The notes under the pieces are model-generated. The model was not told where the DNA came from and did not search any database. It worked only from the letters and a program-made list of their open reading frames with translations. The translations under genes and the position numbers were made by a program. Below, piece after piece: positions 676 to 19,628 of a stretch of 21,065 nucleotides of DNA. The stretch lies in the IMG/VR virus record IMGVR_UViG_2718218228_000013; one strand, written 5' to 3'. How positions within the stretch are numbered: position 1 is the first letter of the stretch; each line of letters starts with the position of its first letter. The stretch is from a virus. Its lineage: Duplodnaviria; Heunggongvirae; Uroviricota; Caudoviricetes.

Positions 676-1632
676 GTGACTAGTTATTCAAACTTTTCCA
701 ATCAAATAAAAGAAACCATCAATAATAAATTCGATCATGAAATTCATGATTGGGACATTATAAAAAACTCAATCACAACTTTAATAAATAAAAATATCCA
801 TGGTGCAGGTAGAAATATCGTTGATTTTATAGATTTAGGTAACTGGGATTTTATTTCAAACTTTTCCTTTGATGACTCTACAAGAAGACTTGAATTAGAG
901 TGGCACCCCAATGATAAATTCCATATATATATTGAGTCCGTTGTGTTTGTCGAGTTTAATGACACTATATATGCTTTCTTAAAGGGATACTATCACAATC
1001 AGTTATCTCTAAATAGAATATATAATACAAAATGCTCTTCATGTTCATTTGAAAACTCAGGTTCTTATATGGTAGACGTTTATAGAACGGTTAAAAGAGT
1101 AAATGAGACAATCCAGACCCCAAATATAAATTGCTATACTACATGTATTTTAACAAGGCCCGCAAATGGTCATGTTACATCTACAGGCTTCTCACGAAAC
1201 CTCATGGATGCGATAAATATTTCATTAGCAGAGCACAAAATAGCCTCTTTACATAATGAAGTCATGAGTATTGAGGAATATGATCGTGATTCTTTACAAG
1301 AGAAAGGAAATACTGCCAGGAGATATTTAGAATATATTCTCATGCTTGTTAATATTCGTATAATGCATTTAAACAACGTTCAATACCAAGAGCAAATGCT
1401 AGGTAGTTTAGTTTCTGTTATTGAGGCTCTGGACTATGAACCATTAATGAAAAATGATGTTGAAATTACAAAGGACATCCTTAATGCTTGCAGCCACCAC
1501 GGGGGGGTTAGAATTGAAAAGAAAGATGTAATTTTTTCTTTGGAAGTTATTGAAAACTTAATTAAAGCCATAAAGAAAACCGACATAAATAAATTACAAC
1601 TCGATGGGATGTTTAAATCAATTCAAAAATAA
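676..1632 (+). CDS. Hypothetical protein (318 aa), AT-rich cargo gene between left att repeat and primase
   Basis: Long ORF with GTG start; GAGG 7 nt upstream; much more AT-rich than the adjacent primase gene. No motif recognised. Confidence 0.6.
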   Translation: MTSYSNFSNQIKETINNKFDHEIHDWDIIKNSITTLINKNIHGAGRNIVDFIDLGNWDFISNFSFDDSTRRLELEWHPNDKFHIYIESVVFVEFNDTIYAFLKGYYHNQLSLNRIYNTKCSSCSFENSGSYMVDVYRTVKRVNETIQTPNINCYTTCILTRPANGHVTSTGFSRNLMDAINISLAEHKIASLHNEVMSIEEYDRDSLQEKGNTARRYLEYILMLVNIRIMHLNNVQYQEQMLGSLVSVIEALDYEPLMKNDVEITKDILNACSHHGGVRIEKKDVIFSLEVIENLIKAIKKTDINKLQLDGMFKSIQK

Positions 1633-1764: not shown

Positions 1765-4098
1765 TTATTTCGCTGCAAACTCATCGCATTTTGGCAACCA
1801 GTCAGCATTGCTTTCCTCTCTTAGGGCCAGATTAGTCTGCATTCCTTGATTGGTCCGTCGTTTCTCATACTGCAGCCCATATTCCTTGAGCATTAACGGT
1901 AGCCCCTTGCCAAACATGGTCAGACTGAGCGTATTTTTATAGCCGTTAGCCTCCATGTAGACCAGATAGGCATGGTAGAGGTAAGTTCGAGGCTGACGTG
2001 GAACAATATTAGCGTTCCCCATAAACATGCCCGTGGTGTCAGGTAGGACCTCAAGGTAGCCGCAAAAATCAAAAGCTGAATCAGCATCACGTTTGATGGT
2101 GAGCGCTTCATCGGAGTTCTGCTGTGACTGAAGCAATGTCCTGGCACTCATTGGGTCGCTGAAACGCTGCATAAGCTGGCGAACAATCACCGCTAGCTCA
2201 CTGGCAATTTTCTCTTTGAGCTGGGTATCGCGTTCCTCCGGGGCTATCTGGTCGGGGAAATGCAGGATCACCCTTCGGCGTGAAACTCCACCACTACGAT
2301 CAGTGAAGCGCATCGGATTATTGTTCACAGCCAGGATGACCGCCGGGATGTGGGTTGAATAGGCGTTCTGATATTTGGGATCAACGGATACCGCATCGCC
2401 GCCAGTGATGGCTTTTAGTCCGGCCCCGTCACCGCTCCACTTTTCCTGGTCGGGAAGTCGAATCAGTGAAAAACCTATTAACGCAGCTCGTTCTCTTGGC
2501 GACTCAAGCATTTCAATGGTTGCCGAGGTCGCGTTATCTTCACCCGCCAGCATGGTTGCTATTTCAGCAAGAATACTCTTTCCACTTCCGCCAGGGCCAG
2601 TGACCTCCAGAAACAGCTGCCAGTCATAACGGTTAGCCAGCACCATAAACAATGCAGCCAGAATAATGTCCCGTTTTTCAGGATTAAAACCTGCGGCACG
2701 ATCCAGCCAGCGCCAGAATGCCGGGGCATGGGTTTCCAGTGACTCACCGTCAACGGGCTGCGTGTAATCCACCTCGCACAGCGTACGTAACCAGTGCTTC
2801 TTATCGTGCGGGCTGAACAATCCTGTCCGGGTATCGAGCACACCGTTGCGAAATCCGATAAGTTGCCGCGCCGGATTCTGCTGTTGCGGAACGATCAGTT
2901 TGAGGGTTTCCACGAGAGACGCAATTTTCGCGGATGAAAAAGGTGCGTCGAGGCGCTGAAACAGCGCAGCGACATCACGGGCAAAATCGGCGTAATAGAT
3001 AACTTTCCAGGCCCCCGCCTCATAGCGTGAAAGGAGCTGCCCGTTCGGGTCTACTGCCAGTGAATTTTTATAGTGATCCACTACCCTCTGCGCTTTTTCG
3101 CTGACGCTCAGCGCGGTAAATTCAGCTTCGCTCATTGTGTCGAAGGGGCTGGCAACAGCTGGTTTTATTACTTCATGAATTGCATGCCGGGTGGCTTCTT
3201 CGCCGTTTTGCGTGAATGCATCGTTCCAGTCACCAAACACAGGCGGGAGCGCCATTGTGCAATTGCAGGCCCCGGTAACAGCTGCGCCCCTTGTTTGCCC
3301 CGCACCGTTGAGATCGCGGTCAGCAGCAATAATTATCTGGTGCGTTGGGTACTCACTGCAGGCAATGCTCGCCAGGGAAAGGAAATTGACGGACGAAAAG
3401 GCCACCATGACAGCATCGCCAGTCAGATAGTTGATAGTAAGTGCGGTGGCATATCCTTCCGCTATCCAGAGCCGTTTGGCTGCTTTGGCAGTACCTTCAA
3501 CCAGGTAAAAGGCATTCTTAACCTGACCGCCTTTAAGGAAGCATTTGCCCCCATTAGCGTTGATTAACTGCAGATTTACCAGCTCTCCATCTGCATACAA
3601 TGGAACGACAAGATCTCCCGCGCGAAATGCCACACCACCGACTTTATGCATAGCGGTTAATTCCCGGCAAGGCAGTGCAGGAAACCCTTTACTCGTCAGA
3701 TAGGCATTGCCAGTGGTCTGGCGGGACTTATCAAACAAACGGGCAGCCAGCACTGCTGCAGCTTTTCTCCCGTCCTCTTTTTCAGGAGAACCAGATTCAA
3801 GCATTCCCTGAGATACTGGCAGCAGGTTTCCGATAATGCCGTTTATTCTGTCTGCCGCTTCACTAATGCCTACATCCAGTACTTTACTTACAAGCGCCAG
3901 GCCATCACCTGCCCCGCACTGGTTACAGAACCACGTTCCCCGCCCTTCCTGGTCATCAAATCGAAAGCGGTCTTTCCCGGCACAGACCGGGCAGGGCTGG
4001 TGCCGATTTTTCAGTACATTTACGCCCAGCGCAGGTAAAATTCTTGACCAGTGACCCCGAGCTGCTTTCTCAGCCTGGCTAACTTTCATTCCTGACAT
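1765..4098 (-). CDS. P4 alpha-type DNA primase-helicase (777 aa)
   Basis: ORF 1765..4155; start placed at the internal ATG (4098) preceded by AAGGAGGG. N-terminal Cys-rich zinc-binding primase region (CPVCAGKDRFRFDD...WFCNQCG); Walker A-like GPGGSGKS. Length equals P4 alpha (777 aa). Confidence 0.92.
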   Translation of the reverse strand: MSGMKVSQAEKAARGHWSRILPALGVNVLKNRHQPCPVCAGKDRFRFDDQEGRGTWFCNQCGAGDGLALVSKVLDVGISEAADRINGIIGNLLPVSQGMLESGSPEKEDGRKAAAVLAARLFDKSRQTTGNAYLTSKGFPALPCRELTAMHKVGGVAFRAGDLVVPLYADGELVNLQLINANGGKCFLKGGQVKNAFYLVEGTAKAAKRLWIAEGYATALTINYLTGDAVMVAFSSVNFLSLASIACSEYPTHQIIIAADRDLNGAGQTRGAAVTGACNCTMALPPVFGDWNDAFTQNGEEATRHAIHEVIKPAVASPFDTMSEAEFTALSVSEKAQRVVDHYKNSLAVDPNGQLLSRYEAGAWKVIYYADFARDVAALFQRLDAPFSSAKIASLVETLKLIVPQQQNPARQLIGFRNGVLDTRTGLFSPHDKKHWLRTLCEVDYTQPVDGESLETHAPAFWRWLDRAAGFNPEKRDIILAALFMVLANRYDWQLFLEVTGPGGSGKSILAEIATMLAGEDNATSATIEMLESPRERAALIGFSLIRLPDQEKWSGDGAGLKAITGGDAVSVDPKYQNAYSTHIPAVILAVNNNPMRFTDRSGGVSRRRVILHFPDQIAPEERDTQLKEKIASELAVIVRQLMQRFSDPMSARTLLQSQQNSDEALTIKRDADSAFDFCGYLEVLPDTTGMFMGNANIVPRQPRTYLYHAYLVYMEANGYKNTLSLTMFGKGLPLMLKEYGLQYEKRRTNQGMQTNLALREESNADWLPKCDEFAAK

Positions 4099-4111
4099 TG
4101 TGCGGCCCTCC

Positions 4112-4435
4112 TTAGTGCAGCGCTGGTTTGTTGAGGTGACGGGAACAAAGTTCATCCATGACCGTCATTCCGAGCAGTGAGAGAACCGGACAGGCTTTAA
4201 GCGGCCCCGACTCCATCAGATCCGAAAGCAACGCGCAGGCAATTTCCAGCCCTCTTTGCTGCCCATGCTGGCGCAGATAGAACCCTTCCAGCTCGCGGGC
4301 TATGGCATCTTCAAGTTCAGCGAGCGTCAGGCCGGAATAACGTTCCTGATGATTGCTTAGAGCCAGCCAGGCACAGGCAACGGCACGGCGATACAGAGCG
4401 GCACGAAGTGCCAGAAGAGATTCACAGCATATCAT
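4112..4435 (-). CDS. Hypothetical protein (107 aa) upstream of primase
   Basis: ORF whose start overlaps the upstream gene stop (TGATG-type) and ends 13 nt before the primase start. No motif recognised. Confidence 0.5.
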
Positions 4436-4656
4436 CAGGCCACCTCCGCATTCATCAGGTCGTCATGGCAGCGTTGCACCACTCCATCCAGTTGCTCTGT
4501 CATCAGATAAATGAGGGAAACCAGTTGTTCGCATTGGGCACCTGCTGGCTTTTCATAACAGTCCTGCAGGGCTGCCATGCCAGTTACATACTCACCCACA
4601 TTGCGTAAATGTTTCAGCCTTACAACATCGTCGTAGGAAATCTCAAACTGGTTCAT
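4435..4656 (-). CDS. Hypothetical small protein (73 aa)
   Basis: ATG start with GGAGG 9 nt upstream; ATGA overlap with the upstream small gene. Confidence 0.5.
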
Positions 4657-4847
4657 AGCGTCACCTCCCCGGCAGGCAGCCGTGCAGAAAGGGAGAGTAC
4701 ATAATCTCGGACTAGCAAACGGCGCGCGGAACGCTCATCGCAGGAGACAGTGCGAAGCATACAGATGCGGGGGTGAGTGTCAGCACGGCGGATTGCGGCA
4801 AACACAAAGACATATTGCGGGTGTGACGGGGTGAGGATTGTAGCCAT
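4653..4847 (-). CDS. Small protein (64 aa), possible Icd/Kil-like host-interference protein
   Basis: Internal ATG of the 185-aa ORF, preceded by GGAGG with 8-nt spacer; sits where P4/P1 immunity regions carry kil/icd. Identity is a guess. Confidence 0.35.
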
Positions 4848-4879
4848 GATGGCAGCCTCCAATAAGTAGCGGTTATTGC

Positions 4880-4980
4880 TACCACCGGAAACGCCAATTT
4901 CACTGGTGGCAGCCCGAACGGGGTTGGCGTAACCGGCCTTATTGGAAACCGGCCAGCCCGAAGGCTGCCCCGCCCGGACT
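4880..4980 (-). ncRNA. Candidate c4/cI-type antisense immunity RNA region
   Basis: Hairpins (CAGCC-CGAA-GGCTG at 4954-4967) and three GGCAGCC/GGCTGCC motif copies in mutually complementary orientations, one overlapping the RBS of the downstream small gene (4851-4860). Boundaries approximate. Confidence 0.3.
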
Positions 4981-5206
4981 ACCATTATCTCGATAGAACC
5001 ATGGTGTAAGCATAAACACCACAGCCCTGAAAATGGTTGTGCCTGAGCTACGACGTAAAAAAAGACGCAAGGGGCGTCAATTGTCGCCAATAAGTTATAC
5101 GGAACGCCAATTCCGGCTGCCGATTTTGCGACAGCGGAAAAACTATACCTGGAAATGACGACAGTAAGCAAGCCAGAATAAAGGTATTTAATGTATGCAG
5201 GTATCA

Positions 5207-5467
5207 TCATGCATCACATCCCCGCCCACGGGCGCTGATGCGGTCCGCCATCCATGCGCTGACCTCAGACTGTGCCCAGGCGACATTTTTACCGCCAAGC
5301 GGGATCTGCTTCGGAAACGCATCGCGGCTGATCAGGTCGTAAACGGTCGAACGGGACAACCCGCATAAGTGCATCACCTCAGGCAGGCGTAAAAATCGCT
5401 CATGATGGTTCGATACAGGAAATAATGGCGCAGCAGGAGCTGGCGCAGACACAGAAATATTACGCAT
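5207..5467 (-). CDS. alpA: AlpA/Vis-family phage transcriptional regulator (excisionase-like HTH)
   Basis: [23 protein letters not shown]...[12 protein letters not shown] matches the AlpA family pattern; AGAGGG RBS upstream. Confidence 0.8.
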
Positions 5468-6019
5468 TTATCTACCCTCTTTAATTTCCACAACAGTCCG
5501 GATGAATTTATCCGGGTTCAGGTAGTTCCTTATTATGTGTATATAAACCACCTGCGCACGCATTTTTTATTTAGCGTCACATATTGATTTTATGGAATTT
5601 AAAGCCCGATTAAACCATATAAAATGACATAATAAATACCATGCCTGCGGACTATAAATACAGGAGCATTAATAGGAACTACCATTCACCCAGGGTTTAC
5701 TATCCTATGGGTCATTGCACCTGATAGTGCTAACCCCACCGCCAATACAGCAAGGCAGTACAACTTCTACACGAGGCCTTGCATTGCAGGCCCCAATTTC
5801 CGGGCATATTTTTGAATCGCATCCAACTTATAAACATTGGGCCTGCATAAAAACCTTGATATTAAATAACATCACCTTAAATCGTAAAATATATCCGAAT
5901 GAATCCATAAAGAACCGGACAGATCTAGTTTTATAAAAATCAGTATGAAATGCAACACCATGGCCAGAGGCGAAAATGTTATTCCCCGGCAAAAACATGC
6001 AGTCTATTTATGTGCCTGT

Positions 6020-6400: not shown

Positions 6401-7153
6401 ATGACAATCCCAGAACAGAACAATAACCCGATCGTTGAAATTTCTATCCCTGTTTCGACGCAACAGGCGCTTGAGAAAGTGAATGCCACCAAATCTGCAT
6501 GGCTTGAAGCACGTCGTCAGCAAAAAGCGGCAGCGGATAATATTGCGACAATCCGCCAGCGCCGCGCTGAAATGGAAGCCACGACGAACGCCCTGAATGA
6601 GGAGTGGCGCACGCTATTTCGTGAAAGTCAGGGCGTAGTCTCAAAGGAAATGAAAAAACTGCGCACGGAAATTGCGCTGGGACGAGAAACGCTTGAGGAT
6701 TTTGATGAGCTGCTGGCGGCTCAGGAAAGCGAAAATGCACTTTTGCCGCAGGAGGCTGCGGAATTAGCCGGAAAGTATATCCACGCGCACGACACCCTTG
6801 TGGGTATTCGCGCAAAACAAATCTGGGAAGATTTTATGCAGTCGCATGGAAAAGCACTAATCCAGACACTAAGCCTGCTCAAATCAACAATGGGCAGGGA
6901 AGCCAGCGCAGTTGTCGGTGTGGTGCATTCAGTTAATGACCCGGACACACTGCTGAAAGATTTTATTCATAAACATATCACCAGACCGGCTCTGACTAAC
7001 GATGCGATGCCCGAACAGGACCCCGTGTTTAAACTGGCGGGAGTTGCCCCGGATTATGCGGCCCGTCTGGATTTCAGTAATAAACTCTCTCCAGCAGCTA
7101 TGCATAAAATGAAGGTTCGTCAGGAACGTGCTGAGAAGGAGAAAGCAGTATGA
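6401..7153 (+). CDS. sid: Sid-like capsid size determination (external scaffold) protein
   Basis: 250 aa (P4 Sid 244 aa); first gene of the late operon; internal similarity to the downstream Psu-like protein; stop overlaps the next start. Confidence 0.6.
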   Translation: MTIPEQNNNPIVEISIPVSTQQALEKVNATKSAWLEARRQQKAAADNIATIRQRRAEMEATTNALNEEWRTLFRESQGVVSKEMKKLRTEIALGRETLEDFDELLAAQESENALLPQEAAELAGKYIHAHDTLVGIRAKQIWEDFMQSHGKALIQTLSLLKSTMGREASAVVGVVHSVNDPDTLLKDFIHKHITRPALTNDAMPEQDPVFKLAGVAPDYAARLDFSNKLSPAAMHKMKVRQERAEKEKAV

Positions 7154-7701
7154 TGGCCCGAGTCACTCCAGACCAAGCGCTTATCAGTTTTAGAAATGCC
7201 CGTATTCTGTGGGCTGGACATAGTGAGAGCCGAAAAGCCGTTGAACAACAGATAGAATCACTCCTCACTGCCATGGAAAAACCAGCAGATTATGCTCGAC
7301 AGCTCGAATTACAGCGGGAACATCTGGATGTGCTGAAATGGCAAATTAACTGTGCTGCGCGCGAATGCATTTACTCGCAGCATCAACTGATGGAGGCCTG
7401 CACAGAAGACGCTCTCAGCAATTTTATGCAGGCGAATGGAGCAGCCCTGACATCTGCACTGGCTCCGTTCCTGAAGGGGCGCGGAGGGGTTGACGTTGCG
7501 TCCCGTATATTACGCAATGCTCTGGTTCGCCAGCTGGCAATAACACCGCCTGAAATTGCCGGGGATTATCGTATGATTCTGGATGAATCCGGTGTGATGC
7601 CTGACCCCATGATGGTTCGTGATTGCCAGAGCTCTTACACCCCTGCACAACAACTGCGCTTTCAGCAACGTCTGGATTACATTAACGGCATGCAGGAGTA
7701 A
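7150..7701 (+). CDS. psu: Psu-like polarity suppression / capsid decoration protein
   Basis: 183 aa; LKWQINCAARECIYS, FMQANGAALTSALAP and YTPAQQLRF resemble P4 Psu as I recall it. Confidence 0.7.
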   Translation: MMARVTPDQALISFRNARILWAGHSESRKAVEQQIESLLTAMEKPADYARQLELQREHLDVLKWQINCAARECIYSQHQLMEACTEDALSNFMQANGAALTSALAPFLKGRGGVDVASRILRNALVRQLAITPPEIAGDYRMILDESGVMPDPMMVRDCQSSYTPAQQLRFQQRLDYINGMQE

Positions 7702-7706
7702 TATTA

Positions 7707-7979
7707 ATGGCACTTAAATGTCCCGAATGCGGTACGACGGCACACGCCAGAACCTCCGCCTATGAAGCACCATCGGTTAAACGCTCATGGTATCAGTGCC
7801 AGAATCTTGAATGTTCCTACACATTTACCGCACTGGAAAGTGTGGATACGATAATCATGAAGCCCCGGCGCAATGAACAGGAATCAGAGAAAGCACAAAT
7901 GCCGGAAAAACAACAGCAAACTCTCAATCGCTATGGCTCCGCGTCAAAGCTGTCAAGCCGTCAGCAAATTCCTGTCTGA
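7707..7979 (+). CDS. Ogr/Delta-family zinc-finger late transcriptional activator
   Basis: CPECGTTAHARTS...YQCQNLECSYTF, the classic Ogr/Delta Cys4 motif; 90 aa. Confidence 0.9.
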   Translation: MALKCPECGTTAHARTSAYEAPSVKRSWYQCQNLECSYTFTALESVDTIIMKPRRNEQESEKAQMPEKQQQTLNRYGSASKLSSRQQIPV

Positions 7980-8027: not shown

Positions 8028-8332
8028 CGCCTTTTCCCTGGCTGGCCTGAGAGCGCATGAGTGCATGTCTATAGCGCATGAAAACGCATGATTCTCATGC
8101 ACCATTTTTGACGCGAAAGCCCTTGTGTGGTGGCTTCTGAGACGATTTGCGGAATGCATGAAAACCAGTCTGTTAAGCGAAGCGAGCAGGCGTGGGGGGC
8201 TGCGCGCGCTAAGGGGTTAGATTATAAAATATCAAACGCCGGTGAGATCCATTATTGTGGAACCACCCGAAGGAAGTGTAGAGGCGAAAGTACCCAAAAT
8301 AATTTTGCAAATTATTTAGAAATGAACTGAGC

Positions 8333-8358
8333 GCTCGAAACGAAATATAATTTCGAGC
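8333..8358 (-). terminator. Hairpin downstream of the minus-strand hotspot cassette (candidate terminator)
   Basis: GCTCGAAA-N10-TTTCGAGC inverted repeat about 30 nt after the stop of the last cassette gene; flanked by T-rich sequence. Confidence 0.4.
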
Positions 8359-8388
8359 ACCCCAATTAGCAGTTATATTTTTAATGTA

Positions 8389-8955
8389 TTAAACAGGATA
8401 AAAACCAGAGCTTCCATTCTTATTTAAGTTATGGATTTTATTTGCATCATTAATTTTTATTTGGAACGTCGGACCTTTATTCTCAAGAATTACAATCTGG
8501 AAATTATAGTCCCTTTTGATTAATGCGTGATAAAATGAATCACTGAGACTGACGCTATTAACATCCGATAGAGAACCCCCTCTATCTTTATCAAAGTGCG
8601 TCACTAATGGACTATCAAGCACAACAAATCCAATGAATGGATTCCCTTTTCTTGATAAAAATTCCGCAAAGCAAATGGTAAATATAGCATGCATTACTGC
8701 ACGGGTACCTTTACCAAACATTCCTCGGCGTTTCCCATTGATATTAAAGTCATATGTATCTTCGTCAAATCGCACTTTGTTATCTTTAGAATTTTCAAAA
8801 TTTATATCATTCAAAAAGTCTTGCATCGCTATTTCTATATCATACAAATCAGCTACTGTTAAGGAGTCAAAGTCCTCGGCGGAGTATTTAAGTTCGTCAA
8901 CATCATCTTCTTTATCTTGTAATGAAGATAGAATGCTATGTTTTGTGTGATCCAT
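8389..8955 (-). CDS. ABC/SMC-like ATPase C-terminal lobe (Walker B-like FVVLDSP), hotspot cassette gene 6
   Basis: 188-aa ORF; hydrophobic strand + D (PFIGFVVLDSP); ATG overlaps upstream stop as TAATG; could be a frameshifted continuation of the upstream ORFs. Confidence 0.55.
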   Translation of the reverse strand: MDHTKHSILSSLQDKEDDVDELKYSAEDFDSLTVADLYDIEIAMQDFLNDINFENSKDNKVRFDEDTYDFNINGKRRGMFGKGTRAVMHAIFTICFAEFLSRKGNPFIGFVVLDSPLVTHFDKDRGGSLSDVNSVSLSDSFYHALIKRDYNFQIVILENKGPTFQIKINDANKIHNLNKNGSSGFYPV

Positions 8956-9545
8956 TAAAAGATTGTCTTTATATTCATAAAGTGATTCAAGAGATGAATG
9001 TATTGTTTTATATTTTTATCTTCTAACGTCTTAAAATCACTTTTTTCTGATTGATAAATTTCATTAACATCATTTTTTCTTAACATAATTAATTCATGTT
9101 CGCGAACATTAGATCCGATTGATTCAATTAATCCTTTCAGCTGGCTTTTGATTTTCAATTTTTCTGCATTACACGACAAAAAACAATCATCATATGATAT
9201 TTCATTTTCTTTTTTTTGCGGTGTATTACAGAACTCACAATAAATATCTGCAAAATTATTTAAATAGAAATTCGCCTGTGATACAACATCTATTCTTTGT
9301 AGATCTATAAAGTATTGGTCTTTAAGAAGACTAAATCTTTCAATGAGTAATGATAAGTATTTTTCCCTGTCACTGATTGAATATAATTCATCACTTAACT
9401 CTTTTAATAATTGCTTCTTATCATCAAGTGCATCAACAATACCTTTCAATATATCTTTCGATGATTCAATATCTTGCTCTACTTTCTCAAGTTCTCTTGA
9501 AACAATGACTTGATCATATTCAGGATAAATTAATTGCGCTTTCAA
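8955..9545 (-). CDS. Coiled-coil segment with central CxxC (CEFC), hotspot cassette gene 5
   Basis: 196-aa K/E/L-rich heptad-like sequence; same frame as the upstream Walker A ORF, separated only by one TAA (9576-9578). Confidence 0.5.
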   Translation of the reverse strand: MKAQLIYPEYDQVIVSRELEKVEQDIESSKDILKGIVDALDDKKQLLKELSDELYSISDREKYLSLLIERFSLLKDQYFIDLQRIDVVSQANFYLNNFADIYCEFCNTPQKKENEISYDDCFLSCNAEKLKIKSQLKGLIESIGSNVREHELIMLRKNDVNEIYQSEKSDFKTLEDKNIKQYIHLLNHFMNIKTIF

Positions 9546-9575
9546 TTCCTCATAAATATTTGCAATTTGATTTTT

Positions 9576-10226
9576 TTAAAAATATCTTGCTTTTTTATTT
9601 GGTTTTTCTGCTAAGGAGTTAGTATCATCTCTCTGAGTTAAAAGGAATTTAAATTCAGACTTTCTTTTTGTCTCCTCGCTAGGAATATCAGAAAGAATTA
9701 ACGACTTCTCAGTTAACACTCTTAATTCATCAATACAAAAAAATTCAAAAACATTATTAAGATTAAATTTATGAAGAGTATTACTTAAGTTTGTTCTTAC
9801 TTTAGCCTCTTTGAAATTCAACCTACCATAAAAGTATGATGAAAAACTCTTTTTAGACGAAGCACTTTTGGAAAAAACCATCAACAGATTAGCTTCACTA
9901 ACATTTTCAATGCTCGAATCATATAATCTGTAATGGGCGCTATCCTGAAGAGACCTCTCAATTGTCATTACCCTACCTTGAAAATTAAATTCCAGATAGG
10001 CTAAATCATAACCTTGAGCATGATCGATATCTTTATTTTTTAGTTTTTCACTCCCTAATAAATATCGAATCAAATAATATATGTATGTTTTTCCAGAGTC
10101 AGAACCACCATATAAAATAGTCAATTTAGAACCAAATTCAATTATAGCATCTAATTTATTGAATCCGGTTACCTTTATTTTTCTGAACGTAAAAAAATTG
10201 TCATTCATAATTAAATTCCATATCAT
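9576..10226 (-). CDS. ABC/SMC-like ATPase N-terminal lobe (Walker A GGSDSGKT), hotspot cassette gene 4
   Basis: LTILYGGSDSGKTYI P-loop in a RecF/SMC-like N-terminal context; ORF opens at TTG 10235, ATG starts at 10226 or 10208; ends at in-frame TAA. Confidence 0.6.
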   Translation of the reverse strand: MIWNLIMNDNFFTFRKIKVTGFNKLDAIIEFGSKLTILYGGSDSGKTYIYYLIRYLLGSEKLKNKDIDHAQGYDLAYLEFNFQGRVMTIERSLQDSAHYRLYDSSIENVSEANLLMVFSKSASSKKSFSSYFYGRLNFKEAKVRTNLSNTLHKFNLNNVFEFFCIDELRVLTEKSLILSDIPSEETKRKSEFKFLLTQRDDTNSLAEKPNKKARYF

Positions 10227-10659
10227 ATTTGCCAATTTTATTTTTTATAATTGATTGCAACTGCTCATCAGGAATATCACTATATAACTTAACCACCAAA
10301 TTTATATTATGCTCCATCTGCGCAACATATTCATTATGTAGAGAATTTGTAAATGCATATGTTTTTTCAGAAGCTTTATATACAAAACCACGATGTGTAT
10401 AAATTTTTGAGGCTAGTTCATAGCCTTGCAACAAAGCCAATGATTCTAAAACAATCTCTCGTTTTAGGGCTAACTGAGCATCTCTACGGGGTATTGGAGG
10501 ATGAAGACTAATCTCTTCAGGTAAAAAATCCTTAAGATTTACTAAAATAAAATCAAAACAAATAAGCCGTTCAAGGCTTAATGAAGAAGGATAAATAGCG
10601 ACGAGCACTTTCGCCATTCGACATGCCACTTCTAAACTTGAATTATAAATTCTAACCAT
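10201..10659 (-). CDS. Hypothetical small protein (about 152 aa), hotspot cassette gene 3
   Basis: ATG at 10659 overlaps upstream stop as TAATG; GGTGA 4 nt upstream; stop overlaps start region of gene 4. No motif recognised. Confidence 0.5.
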   Translation of the reverse strand: MVRIYNSSLEVACRMAKVLVAIYPSSLSLERLICFDFILVNLKDFLPEEISLHPPIPRRDAQLALKREIVLESLALLQGYELASKIYTHRGFVYKASEKTYAFTNSLHNEYVAQMEHNINLVVKLYSDIPDEQLQSIIKNKIGKYDMEFNYE

Positions 10660-11276
10660 TATCTCACCGTCCAAATTACTTCACCATCATTAACCAAATG
10701 ATGGCATATTCCTTTTTTATCATTTGCTTCACATATTTTTGATAGTACTGAATGTGCAATTGGTGTCAGAACAGCCTGCTTCAAGACTGCATTACACCTA
10801 ATAAATGCATAATTATGGTCTTCATAAAAGACGGGTTCAATTGAAGATGAAATGTAACATTTCAATGCTTTGAATACATCATCTTTAAATACTTCGCGGA
10901 CAAAAACCTCAAGCGAAGATGCAAAATAAAAATCATTTCTACTATTATTAAAGTGTCGTCTGTATGGATCATCAAGCTCTAAGAAAGAACTATAAGTTTT
11001 ATTTCCATGCTCTGAATAGGCTTGAAGCAGTGCATTAACATATACAGACTCTTTTTTTGAATTGTATGTTGGAATTTCATTTGGAGGGATTCTCACGACA
11101 TACAGCTCGTTAAAGTACTTAAAATAAAGGTGTGTATTTGCAATATCATTTAAAATCAATGATAAGGGTAGAGAGTAAAAAATACTAAAATCAAAATCCT
11201 CAATATATTTTTTTATTTCATCATCTAATGGAATATCAATCTTTTTAGTTATTTTTTTGAAATTGCTGAATCCCAT
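10659..11276 (-). CDS. Hypothetical protein (205 aa), hotspot cassette gene 2; possibly C-terminal part of a frameshifted gene 1-2 fusion
   Basis: AT-rich ORF with one candidate start; overlaps gene 1 by 28 nt across an A7 tract where a 1-nt indel would fuse the frames. Confidence 0.5.
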   Translation of the reverse strand: MGFSNFKKITKKIDIPLDDEIKKYIEDFDFSIFYSLPLSLILNDIANTHLYFKYFNELYVVRIPPNEIPTYNSKKESVYVNALLQAYSEHGNKTYSSFLELDDPYRRHFNNSRNDFYFASSLEVFVREVFKDDVFKALKCYISSSIEPVFYEDHNYAFIRCNAVLKQAVLTPIAHSVLSKICEANDKKGICHHLVNDGEVIWTVR

Positions 11277-18414: not shown

Positions 18415-18741
18415 ATGACTAAAAATACTCGTTTTTCCCCCGAAGTCCGTCAGCGGGCGATTCGTATGGTTCTGGAAAGTCAGGATGAATATGACTCACA
18501 GTGGGCGGCAATTTGTTCCATTGCCCCAAAGATTGGCTGTACGCCGGAGACTCTGCGTGTCTGGGTTCGCCAGCATGAGCGGGATACCGGGGGCGGTGAT
18601 GGTGGGCTCACCAGCGCTGAACGTCAGCGTCTGAAAGAGCTGGAACGTGAAAATCGTGAACTGCGCCGCAGTAACGATATCCTTCGCCAGGCTTCCGCTT
18701 ATTTTGCGAAGGCGGAGTTCGACCGCCTCTGGAAAAAATGA
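18415..18741 (+). CDS. IS3-family transposase OrfA (HTH)
   Basis: [22 protein letters not shown]...[31 protein letters not shown] is the OrfA type of IS629/IS3-group elements. Confidence 0.9.
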
Positions 18742-19628
18742 TGCCACTGCTGGATAAGCTGCGTGAGCAGTACGGGGTCGGACCGGTATGCAGCGAACTG
18801 CATATTGCCCCGTCAACGTATTACCATTGTCAGCAACAGCGACATCATCCGGATAAACGCAGTGCCCGTGCGCAGCACGACGACTGGCTGAAGAGAGAGA
18901 TACAGCGCGTATACGATGAAAATCATCAGGTGTACGGTGTGCGTAAAGTCTGGCGTCAGTTGTTACGGGAAGGAATCAGGGTGGCCAGATGTACAGTGGC
19001 ACGTCTCATGGCGGTTATGGGACTTGCCGGTGTTCTCCGGGGTAAAAAGGTCCGTACGACCATCAGCCGGAAAGCCGTTGCCGCAGGCGACCGCGTAAAC
19101 CGTCAGTTCGTGGCAGAACGACCTGACCAGCTGTGGGTGGCTGATTTTACTTACGTCAGCACATGGCAGGGCTTCGTCTATGTGGCGTTTATCATTGATG
19201 TGTTTGCCGGATACATCGTGGGGTGGCGGGTCTCATCGTCTATGGAAACGACATTCGTGCTGGATGCGCTGGAGCAGGCGTTGTGGGCCCGTCGTCCGTC
19301 TGGCACCATCCATCACAGCGATAAAGGCTCTCAGTATGTGTCACTGGCCTATACGGAGCGACTAAAAGAAGCCGGATTACTGGCATCAACAGGGAGTACA
19401 GGCGACTCGTATGACAACGCGATGGCTGAGAGCATCAATGGTCTTTACAAAGCGGAGGTAATACACCGTAAGAGCTGGAAAAACCGTGCAGAAGTGGAAC
19501 TGGCCACACTAACGTGGGTGGACTGGTATAACAATCGACGATTGCTGGGAAGGCTGGGCCATACTCCTCCGGCAGAAGCAGAAAAAGCTTATTATGCTTC
19601 CATCGGAAACGATGATCTGGCAGCCTGA
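18738..19628 (+). CDS. IS3-family transposase OrfB (DDE integrase core), expressed as OrfAB by -1 frameshift
   Basis: DDE region (WVADFTYV...HSDKGSQY...[11 protein letters not shown]); overlaps OrfA at the A6 run 18733-18738. Confidence 0.9.

What the first reader, a model, noticed from the sequence alone, without database searches (positions are those of the whole stretch)
4850..4980. Possible c4/cI-like antisense immunity module upstream of a small icd/kil-like gene
Between alpA and the small genes preceding the primase, the only long ORF (185 aa) looks like an out-of-frame artefact. Its 3' third has a good internal RBS and start (64 aa). Upstream are hairpins and three copies of a GGCAGCC/GGCTGCC motif: one overlaps that RBS (4851-4860), one is at 4908-4914, and one in complementary orientation is at 4963-4969. 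A transcript of the upstream copy could pair with the RBS over about 10 bp. This mirrors RNA-mediated immunity in P1 (c4-icd) and P4 (cI, seqA/B/C).
Basis: partly seen in the sequence, partly recalled or inferred. Interest (0 to 1): 0.5.

Follow-up and report, generated by a model that had tools for sequence, protein, structure and literature searches.

The report
P4-type RNA immunity module in O157

Summary
On the minus strand, Rfam finds a full-length C4 antisense RNA (4989-4902, 84 bits, gathering score 45). An isrK/seqA-type leader lies upstream (5135-5058, 71.9 bits). The 64-aa gene downstream (4847-4653) is Icd-like. The region is 69% identical to the phage P4 immunity region, inside a complete P4-type satellite prophage of E. 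coli O157:H7.

Three details need correcting.
- The operative antisense contacts are not the GGCAGCC/GGCUGCC motif. They are two other boxes of C4: the hairpin-2 loop and the 3' junction strand. Each is complementary to a site at the kil ribosome-binding region and to a second site in the isrK leader. In 39 related loci these contacts co-vary (9 and 6 sequence types).
- The 185-aa ORF is not an artefact. It is the homolog of P4 eta, it overlaps the alpA stop codon (ATGA), and it stays open in 33 of 33 distinct loci where the overlap is in frame.
- The module extends beyond the reported coordinates, to about 5171.

Novelty: already known (P4 CI/seqA/seqC; the IsrK-C4 link was published in 2013). 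Interest is low.

The parts
5207..5467 (-). alpA/vis homolog (86 aa), the first gene of the operon. Its stop codon overlaps the eta start (ATGA at 5210-5207).
   Evidence: Pfam Phage_AlpA 70.3 bits. Aligns with P4 ORF88/vis.
4653..5210 (-). eta-like long ORF (185 aa) that runs across the promoter, isrK, C4 and kil. It is kept open, but its upstream part is not constrained as a protein.
   Evidence: In 33 distinct loci there are 0 stops in this frame, against 153 and 175 in the other two frames. Codon-position variability is flat at 0.60/0.64/0.58. Pfam Phage_ASH matches residues 22-132. The P4 equivalent is open and starts at the same ATGA overlap with vis. The eta/kil literature is summarised in PMC10111431.
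5142..5171 (-). PLE-like constitutive promoter inside eta: TTGCTT (5171-5166), an 18-nt spacer, then TATAGT (5147-5142). The isrK 5' end (5135) lies 7 nt downstream.
   Evidence: Both hexamer regions are conserved with P4 in alignment A1. The generic sigma-70 scan did not call it, because only 3 of 6 bases match in the -35 hexamer. This part is inferred by homology.
5058..5135 (-). isrK-type leader, equivalent to the P4 seqA region and the P1 a1/b1 site. It holds hairpin 1, hairpin 2 presenting box a1 (UUGGCGU, 5110-5104), box b1 (CUUAUUGG, 5094-5087), and an intrinsic terminator (stem 5078-5064 plus a U-run; t1 in P4).
   Evidence: Rfam isrK 71.9 bits (gathering score 50); c4-a1b1 44.6 bits (gathering score 46.7). 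The terminator scan finds only this site. a1-a' and b1-b' covary, 99.4% of cells paired, 0/500 shuffles.
4997..5026 (-). Spacer hairpin between the terminator and C4 (arms 5026-5018 and 5005-4997). Its function is unknown.
   Evidence: RNAalifold. 94% of cells paired, 7 of 9 pairs changed on both sides, 0/500 shuffles.
4902..4989 (-). C4/CI antisense RNA. It has a 17-bp outer stem, hairpin 1 with a C(UUCG)G loop (4967-4954), hairpin 2 whose loop carries box b' (UCCAAUAAG, 4946-4938), and a 3' junction strand carrying box a' (ACGCCAA, 4930-4924). A CCA follows the stem.
   Evidence: Rfam C4 84 bits, full length. MFE -50.8 kcal/mol, z = -4.9. Stems and contacts covary, 98.6% of cells paired, 0/500 shuffles.
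4851..4897 (-). Downstream target, equivalent to P4 seqC and P1 a2/b2. Box a2 is UUGGCGU (4897-4891). Box b2 is CUUAUUGGA (4866-4858) and overlaps the Shine-Dalgarno GGAGG (4860-4856).
   Evidence: Exact complementarity in every locus, with 9 b-types and 6 a-types. a'-a2 is 100% paired with 6 of 7 pairs changed on both sides; b'-b2 is 93% paired with 7 of 9. Duplex energies are -12.7 and -10.3 kcal/mol.
4653..4847 (-). kil/icd-like gene (64 aa), nested in the 3' end of eta. Its stop overlaps the start of the next gene (ATGA at 4656-4653).
   Evidence: NCBIfam phage_ICD_like 66.9 bits, cutoff 25. 79% amino-acid identity to P4 Kil. Third-position variability excess 0.22/0.18/0.76.
4878..4913 (-). 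Alternative hairpin. The 3' arm of the C4 outer stem (4913-4905) can instead pair with a downstream mimic of the 5' arm (4886-4878), which places a2 in the loop.
   Evidence: 99.4% of cells paired, 3 pairs changed on both sides, 0/500 shuffles. Its function is not established.
1765..4656 (-). Downstream genes under immunity control: a 73-aa ORF (4656-4435), a DUF5375/orf106 homolog (4435-4112) and the alpha primase-helicase (4155-1765). Their stop and start codons overlap or abut.
   Evidence: Pfam DUF5375 166.6 bits. Primase domains. RefSeq annotation. Same gene order as P4.

Best explanation
This is the immunity region of a P4-type satellite prophage of E. coli O157:H7. It is orthologous to the P4 PLE-seqA-t1-cI-seqC-kil/eta region but has a different specificity.

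Shown here:
- A C4/CI-family RNA lies at 4989-4902 (-), preceded by an isrK/seqA-type leader with an intrinsic terminator at 5135-5058.
- Two single-stranded boxes of C4 are complementary to two bipartite sites. The boxes are b' (UCCAAUAAG, hairpin-2 loop) and a' (ACGCCAA, 3' junction). The sites are a1/b1 in the leader and a2/b2 just upstream of kil.
- Box b2 covers the first three bases of the kil Shine-Dalgarno sequence.
- These contacts co-vary across relatives.
- kil (Icd-like, 64 aa) is nested in a long ORF (eta) that overlaps the alpA stop codon. The upstream part of eta is kept open but is not constrained as a protein.

Inferred from P4 and P1 genetics:
- A constitutive promoter inside eta (about 5171-5142) makes an untranslated leader.
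- Read-through of the terminator yields a precursor from which the CI/C4 RNA is cut out (RNase P at the 5' end).
- CI RNA then pairs with nascent leaders. At a1/b1 it enhances termination at the leader terminator, which autoregulates CI. At a2/b2 it blocks kil translation and causes premature termination and polarity.
- As a result kil, the 73-aa ORF, DUF5375 and the alpha primase stay off, and the element stays quiescent and immune.
- When the upstream late promoter fires, ribosomes translate alpA and then eta through the whole region. This melts the RNA structures and prevents termination, so expression becomes insensitive to immunity.
- Because both boxes differ from those of P4, the element is predicted to be heteroimmune to P4 and to the C4 modules of the Stx phages.
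For: Rfam gathering-level hits: C4 84 bits and isrK 71.9 bits. c4-a1b1 scores 44.6 bits, just under its 46.7 threshold. P4 gives the same three hits. The region aligns with P4 at 69% identity, and the boxes change at all three places. The window is 100% identical to many O157:H7 chromosomes. Gene order is as in P4: sid, psu, delta, vis, eta/kil, DUF5375, alpha, int.

39 loci were collected through the Kil protein, not through the RNA. In them, b' is 7-11 nt complementary to b2, and a' is 7 nt complementary to a2 and a1 in every locus not cut by a contig end. There are 9 b-types and 6 a-types. Formal counts: C4 plus a'-a2 plus b'-b2 is 98.6% paired with 190 cells changed on both sides, 0/500 shuffles. 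isrK plus a1-a' plus b1-b' is 99.4% paired, 0/500.

kil matches phage_ICD_like at 66.9 bits and shows a third-position excess. The eta frame has 0 stops in 33 distinct loci, against 153 and 175 in the other frames. The only terminator-like site in the region is 5078-5064. Cognate duplexes are -9.7 to -12.7 kcal/mol; b' against P4 targets is -2.4 to -4.2.

Literature: IsrK = seqA and C4 = CI RNA in P4-like prophages (PMC3632133; PMC4825925). The eta/kil/CI model is summarised in PMC10111431.
Against: There is no expression data: no RNA has been detected from this locus, and processing, termination and translational repression are all inferred by homology. The PLE-like promoter fails a generic sigma-70 consensus scan, with 3 of 6 matches in the -35 hexamer. 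The primary P4 papers (Sabbattini 1995, Forti 1999, Briani 2000) were not held in the library, so details such as t1, t4 and timm rest on secondary summaries and my own recollection. The element lacks a recognisable epsilon homolog, and according to the O157 Sakai literature (PMC2669165) it may lack a competent P2-type helper. The switch may therefore have little present-day function.
Confidence: 0.88

Rival explanations
1. One reading: the GGCAGCC segment of C4 (5' arm and loop of hairpin 1, 4969-4960) pairs over 10 bp with GGAGGCUGCC (4860-4851) and is the contact that occludes the kil ribosome-binding site.
For: The complementarity is 10 bp with one G-U pair and -18.4 kcal/mol as an isolated duplex. 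It is perfect in P4. 91.8% of cells are pairable across 39 loci, and the common C-to-U change in the target keeps a G-U pair. It lies directly next to b2, so it could extend the b'-b2 helix once the complex has formed.
Against: There is no covariation: 91.8% observed against 91.7% in shuffles, 238/500. Hairpin 1 is replaced in L018 and L019, and the post-SD box is changed in L009, L035, L012 and L034, all without compensation. The segment sits inside a stable C(UUCG)G hairpin, with mean P(unpaired) of 0.34 against 0.73 for b' and 0.95 for a'. The post-SD box is also coding sequence of eta.
Confidence: 0.15
2. A Gifsy-1 IsrK-type positive switch. The short leader RNA that ends at the 5064-5078 terminator acts in trans, either as an activator of translation of the long transcript or as a sponge for C4. 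In this view the module mainly triggers expression of kil and the replication genes rather than maintaining repression.
For: The isrK model matches at 71.9 bits with an intact terminator. The leader carries a1 and b1, which are fully complementary to C4, so a free short RNA could titrate C4. This activity was shown for Salmonella IsrK, where a C4 homolog (STnc1160) lies downstream (PMC4825925).
Against: The context is P4-type rather than a lambdoid ant module. In P4 the seqA element is reported as needed for immunity and lysogeny rather than for induction (PMC3632133). The two roles are not mutually exclusive, so this is an add-on rather than a replacement.
Confidence: 0.2
3. The region is just a protein-coding gene: the 185-aa Ash/Eta protein is the functional product, and the RNA-family hits are by-products of conserved coding sequence.
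For: Pfam Phage_ASH matches residues 22-132 at 104.6 bits. RefSeq annotates the full ORF as a protein. The frame is conserved.
Against: The upstream part shows no third-codon-position excess (0.60/0.64/0.58), unlike kil. Substitutions are compensatory in RNA stems and in four intermolecular helices. An intrinsic terminator and a promoter-like site lie inside the ORF.
Confidence: 0.03

Closest known systems
Satellite phage P4 immunity region (PLE, seqA, terminator t1, cI RNA with seqB, seqC, nested kil/eta genes)
   Same: It shares 69% nucleotide identity over about 740 nt. The order of elements is identical, and the Rfam hits are the same. The ATGA overlap of vis and eta is the same, as is kil nested in eta (79% amino-acid identity). 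The surrounding satellite genes are the same.
   Different: Both specificity boxes differ: b' is CCAAUAAG here and CCUGUGAA in P4; a' is ACGCCAA here and UUCUCAC in P4. All four target boxes are changed to match. The spacer between the terminator and C4 is a net 39 nt shorter. There is no epsilon homolog downstream, and delta is a single 90-aa Ogr-like protein.
Phage P1/P7 c4-icd-ant immunity (C4 antisense RNA, Rfam RF01695; a1/b1 targets, RF03163)
   Same: It belongs to the same RNA family at gathering level. The logic of two boxes and two sites is the same. The target overlaps the ribosome-binding site of an Icd-like first gene encoded on the same transcript as the RNA (review PMC12197685).
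   Different: The downstream cargo is replication genes (alpha primase) rather than an antirepressor. There is no detectable DNA similarity to P1 outside the RNA and icd motifs. The a1b1 model scores just below its threshold (44.6 against 46.7).
Salmonella Gifsy-1 isrK-STnc1160-orf45-anrP locus, and the isrK-C4-ant cassettes of Stx and other lambdoid phages
   Same: The tandem of isrK leader with terminator followed by C4 is the same (PMC4825925).
   Different: Those cassettes sit in lambdoid early regions and control an antirepressor. Their boxes are different (Stx1/Stx2 b' is CCGUUGAC; a' is CUGCGAA or GUGCAAA). Only phage 2H10 shares the a' box. The published IsrK mechanism is trans-activation of translation, not immunity.

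Membership tests
C4 antisense RNA (Rfam RF01695; P1 C4 / P4 CI RNA) | Covariance-model score at or above the curated gathering score, over the full length of the model | tested here: met
   84.0 bits against a gathering score of 45, model positions 1-87 of 87, E = 1.6e-15.
C4 antisense RNA (Rfam RF01695; P1 C4 / P4 CI RNA) | Fold made of a long outer stem enclosing two hairpins, supported by compensatory changes | tested here: met
   The MFE structure equals the family fold, z = -4.9. The outer stem and hairpin 1 are 100% paired across 39 loci, with changes on both sides at 6 pairs. Hairpin 2 is invariant.
C4 antisense RNA (Rfam RF01695; P1 C4 / P4 CI RNA) | Two exposed boxes (a', b') complementary to two target sites, one upstream and one downstream of the RNA gene on the same strand | tested here: met
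   a' pairs with a1 and a2 over 7 nt. b' pairs with b1 over 8 nt and with b2 over 9 nt. All four helices covary.
C4 antisense RNA (Rfam RF01695; P1 C4 / P4 CI RNA) | The downstream target overlaps the ribosome-binding site of an icd/kil-type first gene | tested here: met
   b2 (4866-4858) overlaps GGAGG (4860-4856). The gene matches phage_ICD_like at 66.9 bits.
C4 antisense RNA (Rfam RF01695; P1 C4 / P4 CI RNA) | A stable small RNA released from a longer transcript by RNase P, acting as repressor in vivo | not testable with these tools
   Only indirect support: a CCA follows the outer stem (4906-4904), as I recall for RNase P substrates of this family. There are no expression data.
P4 immunity region (seqA-cI-seqC with kil nested in eta) | Location in a P4-type satellite between vis/alpA and the alpha primase operon, divergent from sid-delta-psu | tested here: met
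   RefSeq and P4 annotations. Pfam hits for AlpA, DUF5375, primase and integrase.
P4 immunity region (seqA-cI-seqC with kil nested in eta) | kil is the 3' part of a longer ORF (eta) that starts upstream of the constitutive promoter and is coupled to the vis/alpA homolog | tested here: met
   ATGA overlap at 5210-5207. The frame is open in 33 distinct loci with 0 stops, against 153 and 175 in the other frames. The arrangement is the same in P4.
P4 immunity region (seqA-cI-seqC with kil nested in eta) | Constitutive promoter (PLE) directly upstream of seqA | tested here: inconclusive
   TTGCTT-18-TATAGT is conserved with P4 and is correctly spaced from the isrK 5' end. It falls below the generic consensus scan threshold. 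There is no transcript mapping.
P4 immunity region (seqA-cI-seqC with kil nested in eta) | Rho-independent terminator between promoter and cI (t1); further terminators (t4, timm) downstream of cI | tested here: inconclusive
   A t1-like terminator is present at 5078-5064 plus a U-run. t4 and timm cannot be located from sequence. The alternative hairpin at 4913-4878 is a candidate only.
isrK (Rfam RF01394) | Covariance-model score at or above the gathering score | tested here: met
   71.9 bits against a gathering score of 50, model positions 1-77 of 77.
isrK (Rfam RF01394) | Hfq-binding short RNA that trans-activates translation of its own read-through mRNA | not testable with these tools
   This was shown only for Salmonella Gifsy-1 (PMC4825925).

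The most novel reading that the evidence does not exclude
The two boxes form a combinatorial immunity code. Among 41 loci there are 9 b-types and 6 a-types, reassorted into 21 combinations. The same cassette also serves lambdoid ant modules, and in 9 co-resident pairs no two elements share both boxes. This could mean that polylysogens such as O157:H7 hold several mutually orthogonal RNA immunities, each needing both boxes, with occasional deliberate cross-talk. One example is L018, whose leader boxes match the C4 of the co-resident L035 rather than its own, which would make it a decoy. Another is phage 2H10, which shares the a' box of this element. Two further covarying hairpins (5026-4997, and the alternative 4913-4878 hairpin that competes with the C4 outer stem) may form a structural toggle between C4 maturation and target display. 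I could not find either described.
Probability: 0.3. Interest if true: 0.4.

Novelty: already known. Interest (0 to 1): 0.13.

Why it matters
For the scan, it shows that this intergenic-looking stretch is fully explained by a textbook system, so it needs no further priority.

There are practical points for annotation. RefSeq labels the whole 185-aa ORF as 'Icd-like' and lists no RNA gene here. Only the last 64 codons are Icd/Kil-like. The rest overlaps two RNA elements, a promoter-like site and a terminator. The Pfam family Phage_ASH largely reflects conserved RNA sequence.

Biologically, the locus predicts that the P4-like prophage of O157:H7 is heteroimmune to P4 and orthogonal to the C4 modules of the Stx phages. 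That matters for prophage-prophage interactions in this pathogen, but it does not open a new question.

Tried and rejected
Tested by pair counting; no covariation. Kept only as a possible helix extension.
- **Generic promoter scan.** It did not call the PLE-like site. I rely on conservation with P4 instead.
- **Primary P4 papers.** PMC176756 and PMC94026 are not held. I used secondary summaries and flagged what comes from memory.
- **Cross-talk with O157 Stx-phage C4 modules.** I looked for it; the boxes differ and the duplex energies are weak.
- **tRNA scan for the attachment site.** None found in the window.
- **Weak b1 matches.** In L020, L022, L026, L029 and L032 these turned out to be G-U wobbles. 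L018 is a genuine mismatch with its own C4.
- **CRISPR-DR22 hit at 5004-5033.** At 21 bits this is chance; it is the spacer hairpin.
- **Local fold pairing a2 with the post-SD GGCUGCC box.** Not pursued: the a2 box changes in relatives while the post-SD box does not, so the pairing cannot be general.
- **Not used.** The large protein-database searches and structure prediction were not needed.

Full report
**1. Observation**

GGCAGCC or its complement lies at 4851-4857 (+), 4908-4914 (+) and 4963-4969 (-). The motif is enriched: 9 copies in the window against 2.34 expected, 0 of 100 shuffles reach 9, and six copies lie within 4570-5121. The only long ORF between alpA (5467-5207, minus strand) and the genes before the primase is 4653..5210 (-), 185 aa. 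Its last 64 codons begin at the ATG at 4847-4845, behind GGAGG at 4860-4856. GGCAGCCUUC (4969-4960) is complementary to GGAGGCUGCC (4860-4851) over 10 bp with one G-U pair.

**2. What it is**

An Rfam scan at gathering thresholds gives two adjacent minus-strand hits:
- C4 antisense RNA (RF01695) at 4989-4902, 84.0 bits against 45, full length.
- isrK (RF01394) at 5135-5058, 71.9 bits against 50, full length.

A third model, 'a1, b1 targets of C4' (RF03163), scores 44.6 against 46.7 at 5148-5096. The C4 segment folds into the family structure: -50.8 kcal/mol, z = -4.9.

The window is 100% identical to many E. coli O157:H7 chromosomes. The 1.1-kb region aligns with phage P4 at 69% identity over P4 coordinates 8180-8961, which is the P4 immunity region. 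P4 itself gives the same three Rfam hits.

The surrounding genes are those of a P4-type satellite:
- sid (6401-7153), psu (7150-7701) and an Ogr/delta-like gene (7707-7979) on the plus strand.
- alpA/vis, the long ORF, a 73-aa ORF, DUF5375 and the alpha primase-helicase (4155-1765) on the minus strand.
- a P4-type integrase at 12901-11669.

An Ogr-like gene and the lack of an epsilon homolog fit the description of the P4-like prophage Sp2 of O157 Sakai (PMC2669165). That identification is my inference.

**3. The small gene and the long ORF**

The 64-aa product matches NCBIfam phage_ICD_like (66.9 bits, cutoff 25). It is 79% identical to the C-terminal 65 aa of the corresponding P4 ORF, which is Kil.

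The long ORF is not an artefact. In P4 the same frame is open from an ATGA overlap with the vis stop codon through to the kil stop. I collected 39 loci from diverse Enterobacterales by searching with the Kil protein. The in-frame GCATGA overlap with the alpA stop is present in 33 distinct loci. The loci without it are L010, L013 and four cut by contig ends. Across those 33 loci the frame has 0 stop codons, against 153 and 175 in the other two frames.

The upstream part of the ORF is not constrained as a protein, however. Per-column variability at codon positions 1/2/3 is 0.60/0.64/0.58, whereas kil gives 0.22/0.18/0.76. This is what the published P4 model predicts. [quoted passage not shown] 1999, as summarised in PMC10111431).

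The Pfam family Phage_ASH, which matches residues 22-132, corresponds to the DNA encoding isrK, C4 and the kil ribosome-binding site.

**4. The antisense contacts**

Comparison with P4 showed coordinated changes at three places:

| Element | Window | P4 |
|---|---|---|
| C4 hairpin-2 loop | CCAAUAAG | CCUGUGAA |
| Box at the kil SD | CUUAUUGG | UUCACAGG |
| Box inside isrK | CUUAUUGG | UUCACAGG |

The 39 loci extend this:
- The loop box (b') has 9 sequence types. It is 7-11 nt Watson-Crick complementary to the SD-proximal box (b2) in every locus. It is complementary to the leader box (b1) in all but one locus, with a few G-U wobbles.
It has 6 types. It is exactly 7-nt complementary to a box just downstream of C4 (a2, 4897-4891) and to the loop of isrK hairpin 2 (a1, 5110-5104).

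Formal pair counts on a 39-row alignment:
- C4 plus a'-a2 plus b'-b2: 98.6% of cells paired, 190 cells changed on both sides, 0/500 shuffles.
- isrK plus a1-a' plus b1-b': 99.4% paired, 0/500 shuffles.
- Sliding the partners by 1-3 columns drops pairing to 33-51% in both cases.

In the window, b2 (4866-4858) overlaps the first three bases of the SD. Cognate duplex energies are -12.7 and -9.7 kcal/mol for b', and -10.3 for a'. Against P4 targets the b' box gives only -4.2 and -2.4. This predicts heteroimmunity.

**5.

The three copies have different roles:
- 4969-4963 is the 5' arm of C4 hairpin 1, a C(UUCG)G hairpin.
- 4914-4908 is part of the 3' arm of the C4 outer stem.
- 4857-4851 follows the SD.

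The proposed pairing of hairpin 1 with the SD region is pairable in 91.8% of cells, but that equals the shuffled expectation (91.7%, 238/500). Where hairpin 1 is replaced (L018, L019), or the post-SD box is altered (L009, L035, L012, L034), there is no compensation. The segment is mostly paired within C4: mean P(unpaired) is 0.34, against 0.73 for b' and 0.95 for a'. It may extend the b'-b2 helix in some members, including this one and P4, but it is not the conserved determinant.

**6. Other anatomy**

- **Promoter.** The -35 and -10 regions of a PLE-like promoter (TTGCTT 5171-5166, 18-nt spacer, TATAGT 5147-5142) are conserved with P4 and place the start at the isrK 5' end. A generic scan does not call it.
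- **Terminator.** The only terminator-like site in 4400-5800 is the isrK 3' hairpin at 5078-5064 followed by a U-run. As I recall Briani et al. 2000, this corresponds to P4 t1, where the CI RNA together with seqA enhances termination and so autoregulates CI. I could not open that paper.
- **Two further covarying hairpins.** One lies in the spacer at 5026-4997 (94% paired, 7 of 9 pairs changed on both sides, 0/500). The other is an alternative hairpin in which the 3' arm of the C4 outer stem (4913-4905) pairs with a downstream copy of the 5' arm (4886-4878) and shows a2 in its loop (99.4% paired, 0/500).
- **Coupled genes.** The stop and start codons of alpA/eta, kil/orf73 and orf73/DUF5375 overlap. 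This fits control of the whole operon through translation of its first cistron.

**7. Mechanism**

*Shown:* the RNA-family membership, the fold, the bipartite complementarity to two sites with covariation, the overlap of b2 with the SD of an Icd-like gene, the nested and coupled ORF architecture, and the terminator.

*Inferred from P4 and P1 work* (PMC3632133; PMC4825925; PMC10111431; PMC12197685):
- Constitutive transcription of an untranslated leader.
- Processing of the read-through transcript to a stable CI/C4 RNA.
- Pairing of that RNA with nascent leaders, which causes premature termination and blocks kil translation.
- Resulting silence of the replication genes.
- Escape from immunity when the transcript from upstream of alpA is translated through eta.

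**8. Comparison and novelty**

The module is an ortholog of the P4 immunity region, a family member of P1/P7 c4, and a relative of the Gifsy-1 isrK locus. Barquist et al. 2013 had already stated that IsrK corresponds to seqA and C4 to the CI RNA in P4-like prophages.

Stx1, Stx2 and other lambdoid phages carry the same isrK-C4 tandem upstream of ant, with different boxes. Only phage 2H10 shares the a' box.

The system is therefore already known. What is particular to this copy is its specificity type (b CUUAUUGG, a UUGGCGU). That type is shared with loci from an Enterobacter MAG, Phytobacter, Kosakonia and Kluyvera.

The a and b types reassort into 21 combinations among 41 loci. In 9 co-resident pairs none shares both boxes. 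This is suggestive, but the sample is too small to be significant.

**9. Verdict**

Interest is low.

Noticed in passing
window 4997-5026 (-): A covarying hairpin lies in the spacer between the isrK terminator and C4 (arms 5026-5018 and 5005-4997). It is 94% paired across 39 loci, and 7 of 9 pairs change on both sides. P4-type loci carry a net 39 nt of extra sequence in this spacer. Its function is unknown; it might aid processing of the C4 5' end.
   Followed up: partly
window 4878-4913 (-): An alternative hairpin forms when the 3' arm of the C4 outer stem pairs with a downstream mimic of the 5' arm, displaying target box a2 in its loop. This mirrors how isrK hairpin 2 displays a1. It covaries (99.4% paired, 0/500 shuffles). 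It is mutually exclusive with the mature C4 fold, and it could be related to the P4 t4 terminator.
   Followed up: partly
window 4815-5147 (-), residues 22-132 of the 185-aa ORF: The Pfam family Phage_ASH (104.6 bits) covers exactly the DNA that encodes isrK, C4 and the kil ribosome-binding site. Codon-position variability there is flat. The 'protein family' is therefore largely a translation of conserved RNA elements. RefSeq names the whole ORF 'Icd-like' and annotates no RNA gene here.
   Followed up: partly
L018 (35-328) and L035 (35-334), both from Mangrovibacter yixingensis: The leader boxes a1 and b1 of L018 (GUAGGAA, CUCAAUGG) do not match its own C4 (a' pairs with GUGGAAA; b' pairs with UCUAACGG). 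They do match the C4 of the co-resident element L035. This is either a recombinant or a possible decoy for the neighbour's immunity RNA.
   Followed up: no
L042 1099-1287, L043 1099-1287, L044 1064-1252 (Stx1a, Stx2a and 2H10 phages): Stx-converting and other lambdoid phages carry the same isrK-C4 tandem inside or upstream of an annotated ant gene, with specificity boxes different from the window's. Phage 2H10 shares the a' box (ACGCCAA) but not b'. O157:H7 genomes may therefore hold three or more orthogonal C4-type modules.
   Followed up: partly
window 8389-11276 (-): The hotspot between the Ogr/delta-like gene and the integrase carries an ABC-three-component (ABC-3C) type defence cassette. 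It includes a CTD6 domain protein, an AAA ATPase and a weak, sub-threshold DUF3732 match (23.2 bits, cutoff 25). One component is annotated as frameshifted in RefSeq.
   Followed up: no
window 18415-19628 (+), ALIL hit at 18696-18812: An IS3-family insertion sequence: orfA of 108 aa (HTH_Tnp_1) and orfB of 296 aa (rve), with an ALIL frameshift pseudoknot at 121.5 bits. From memory, the sizes fit IS629, which is common in O157:H7.
   Followed up: no
window 4435-4656 (-) and 7707-7979 (+): A 73-aa ORF with no family match sits where P4 has epsilon (95 aa) and orf151. The delta-like gene is a single 90-aa Ogr-type protein rather than the 166-aa P4 delta. This matches the published description of Sakai prophage Sp2 as an atypical P4-like element.
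   Followed up: no
window 4675-4681 (-) and 4570-4576 (-): Two further copies of the GGCUGCC/GGCAGCC motif. One lies 14 nt upstream of the GGAGG of the 73-aa ORF, whose ATG overlaps the kil stop codon. Whether this is more than GC-rich coding sequence was not examined.
   Followed up: no
window 1-21065: No tRNA gene is found anywhere in the window, although P4-type integrases usually target tRNA genes. A 318-aa ORF at 676-1632 (+), frameshifted in RefSeq, lies just beyond the alpha end of the element.
   Followed up: no
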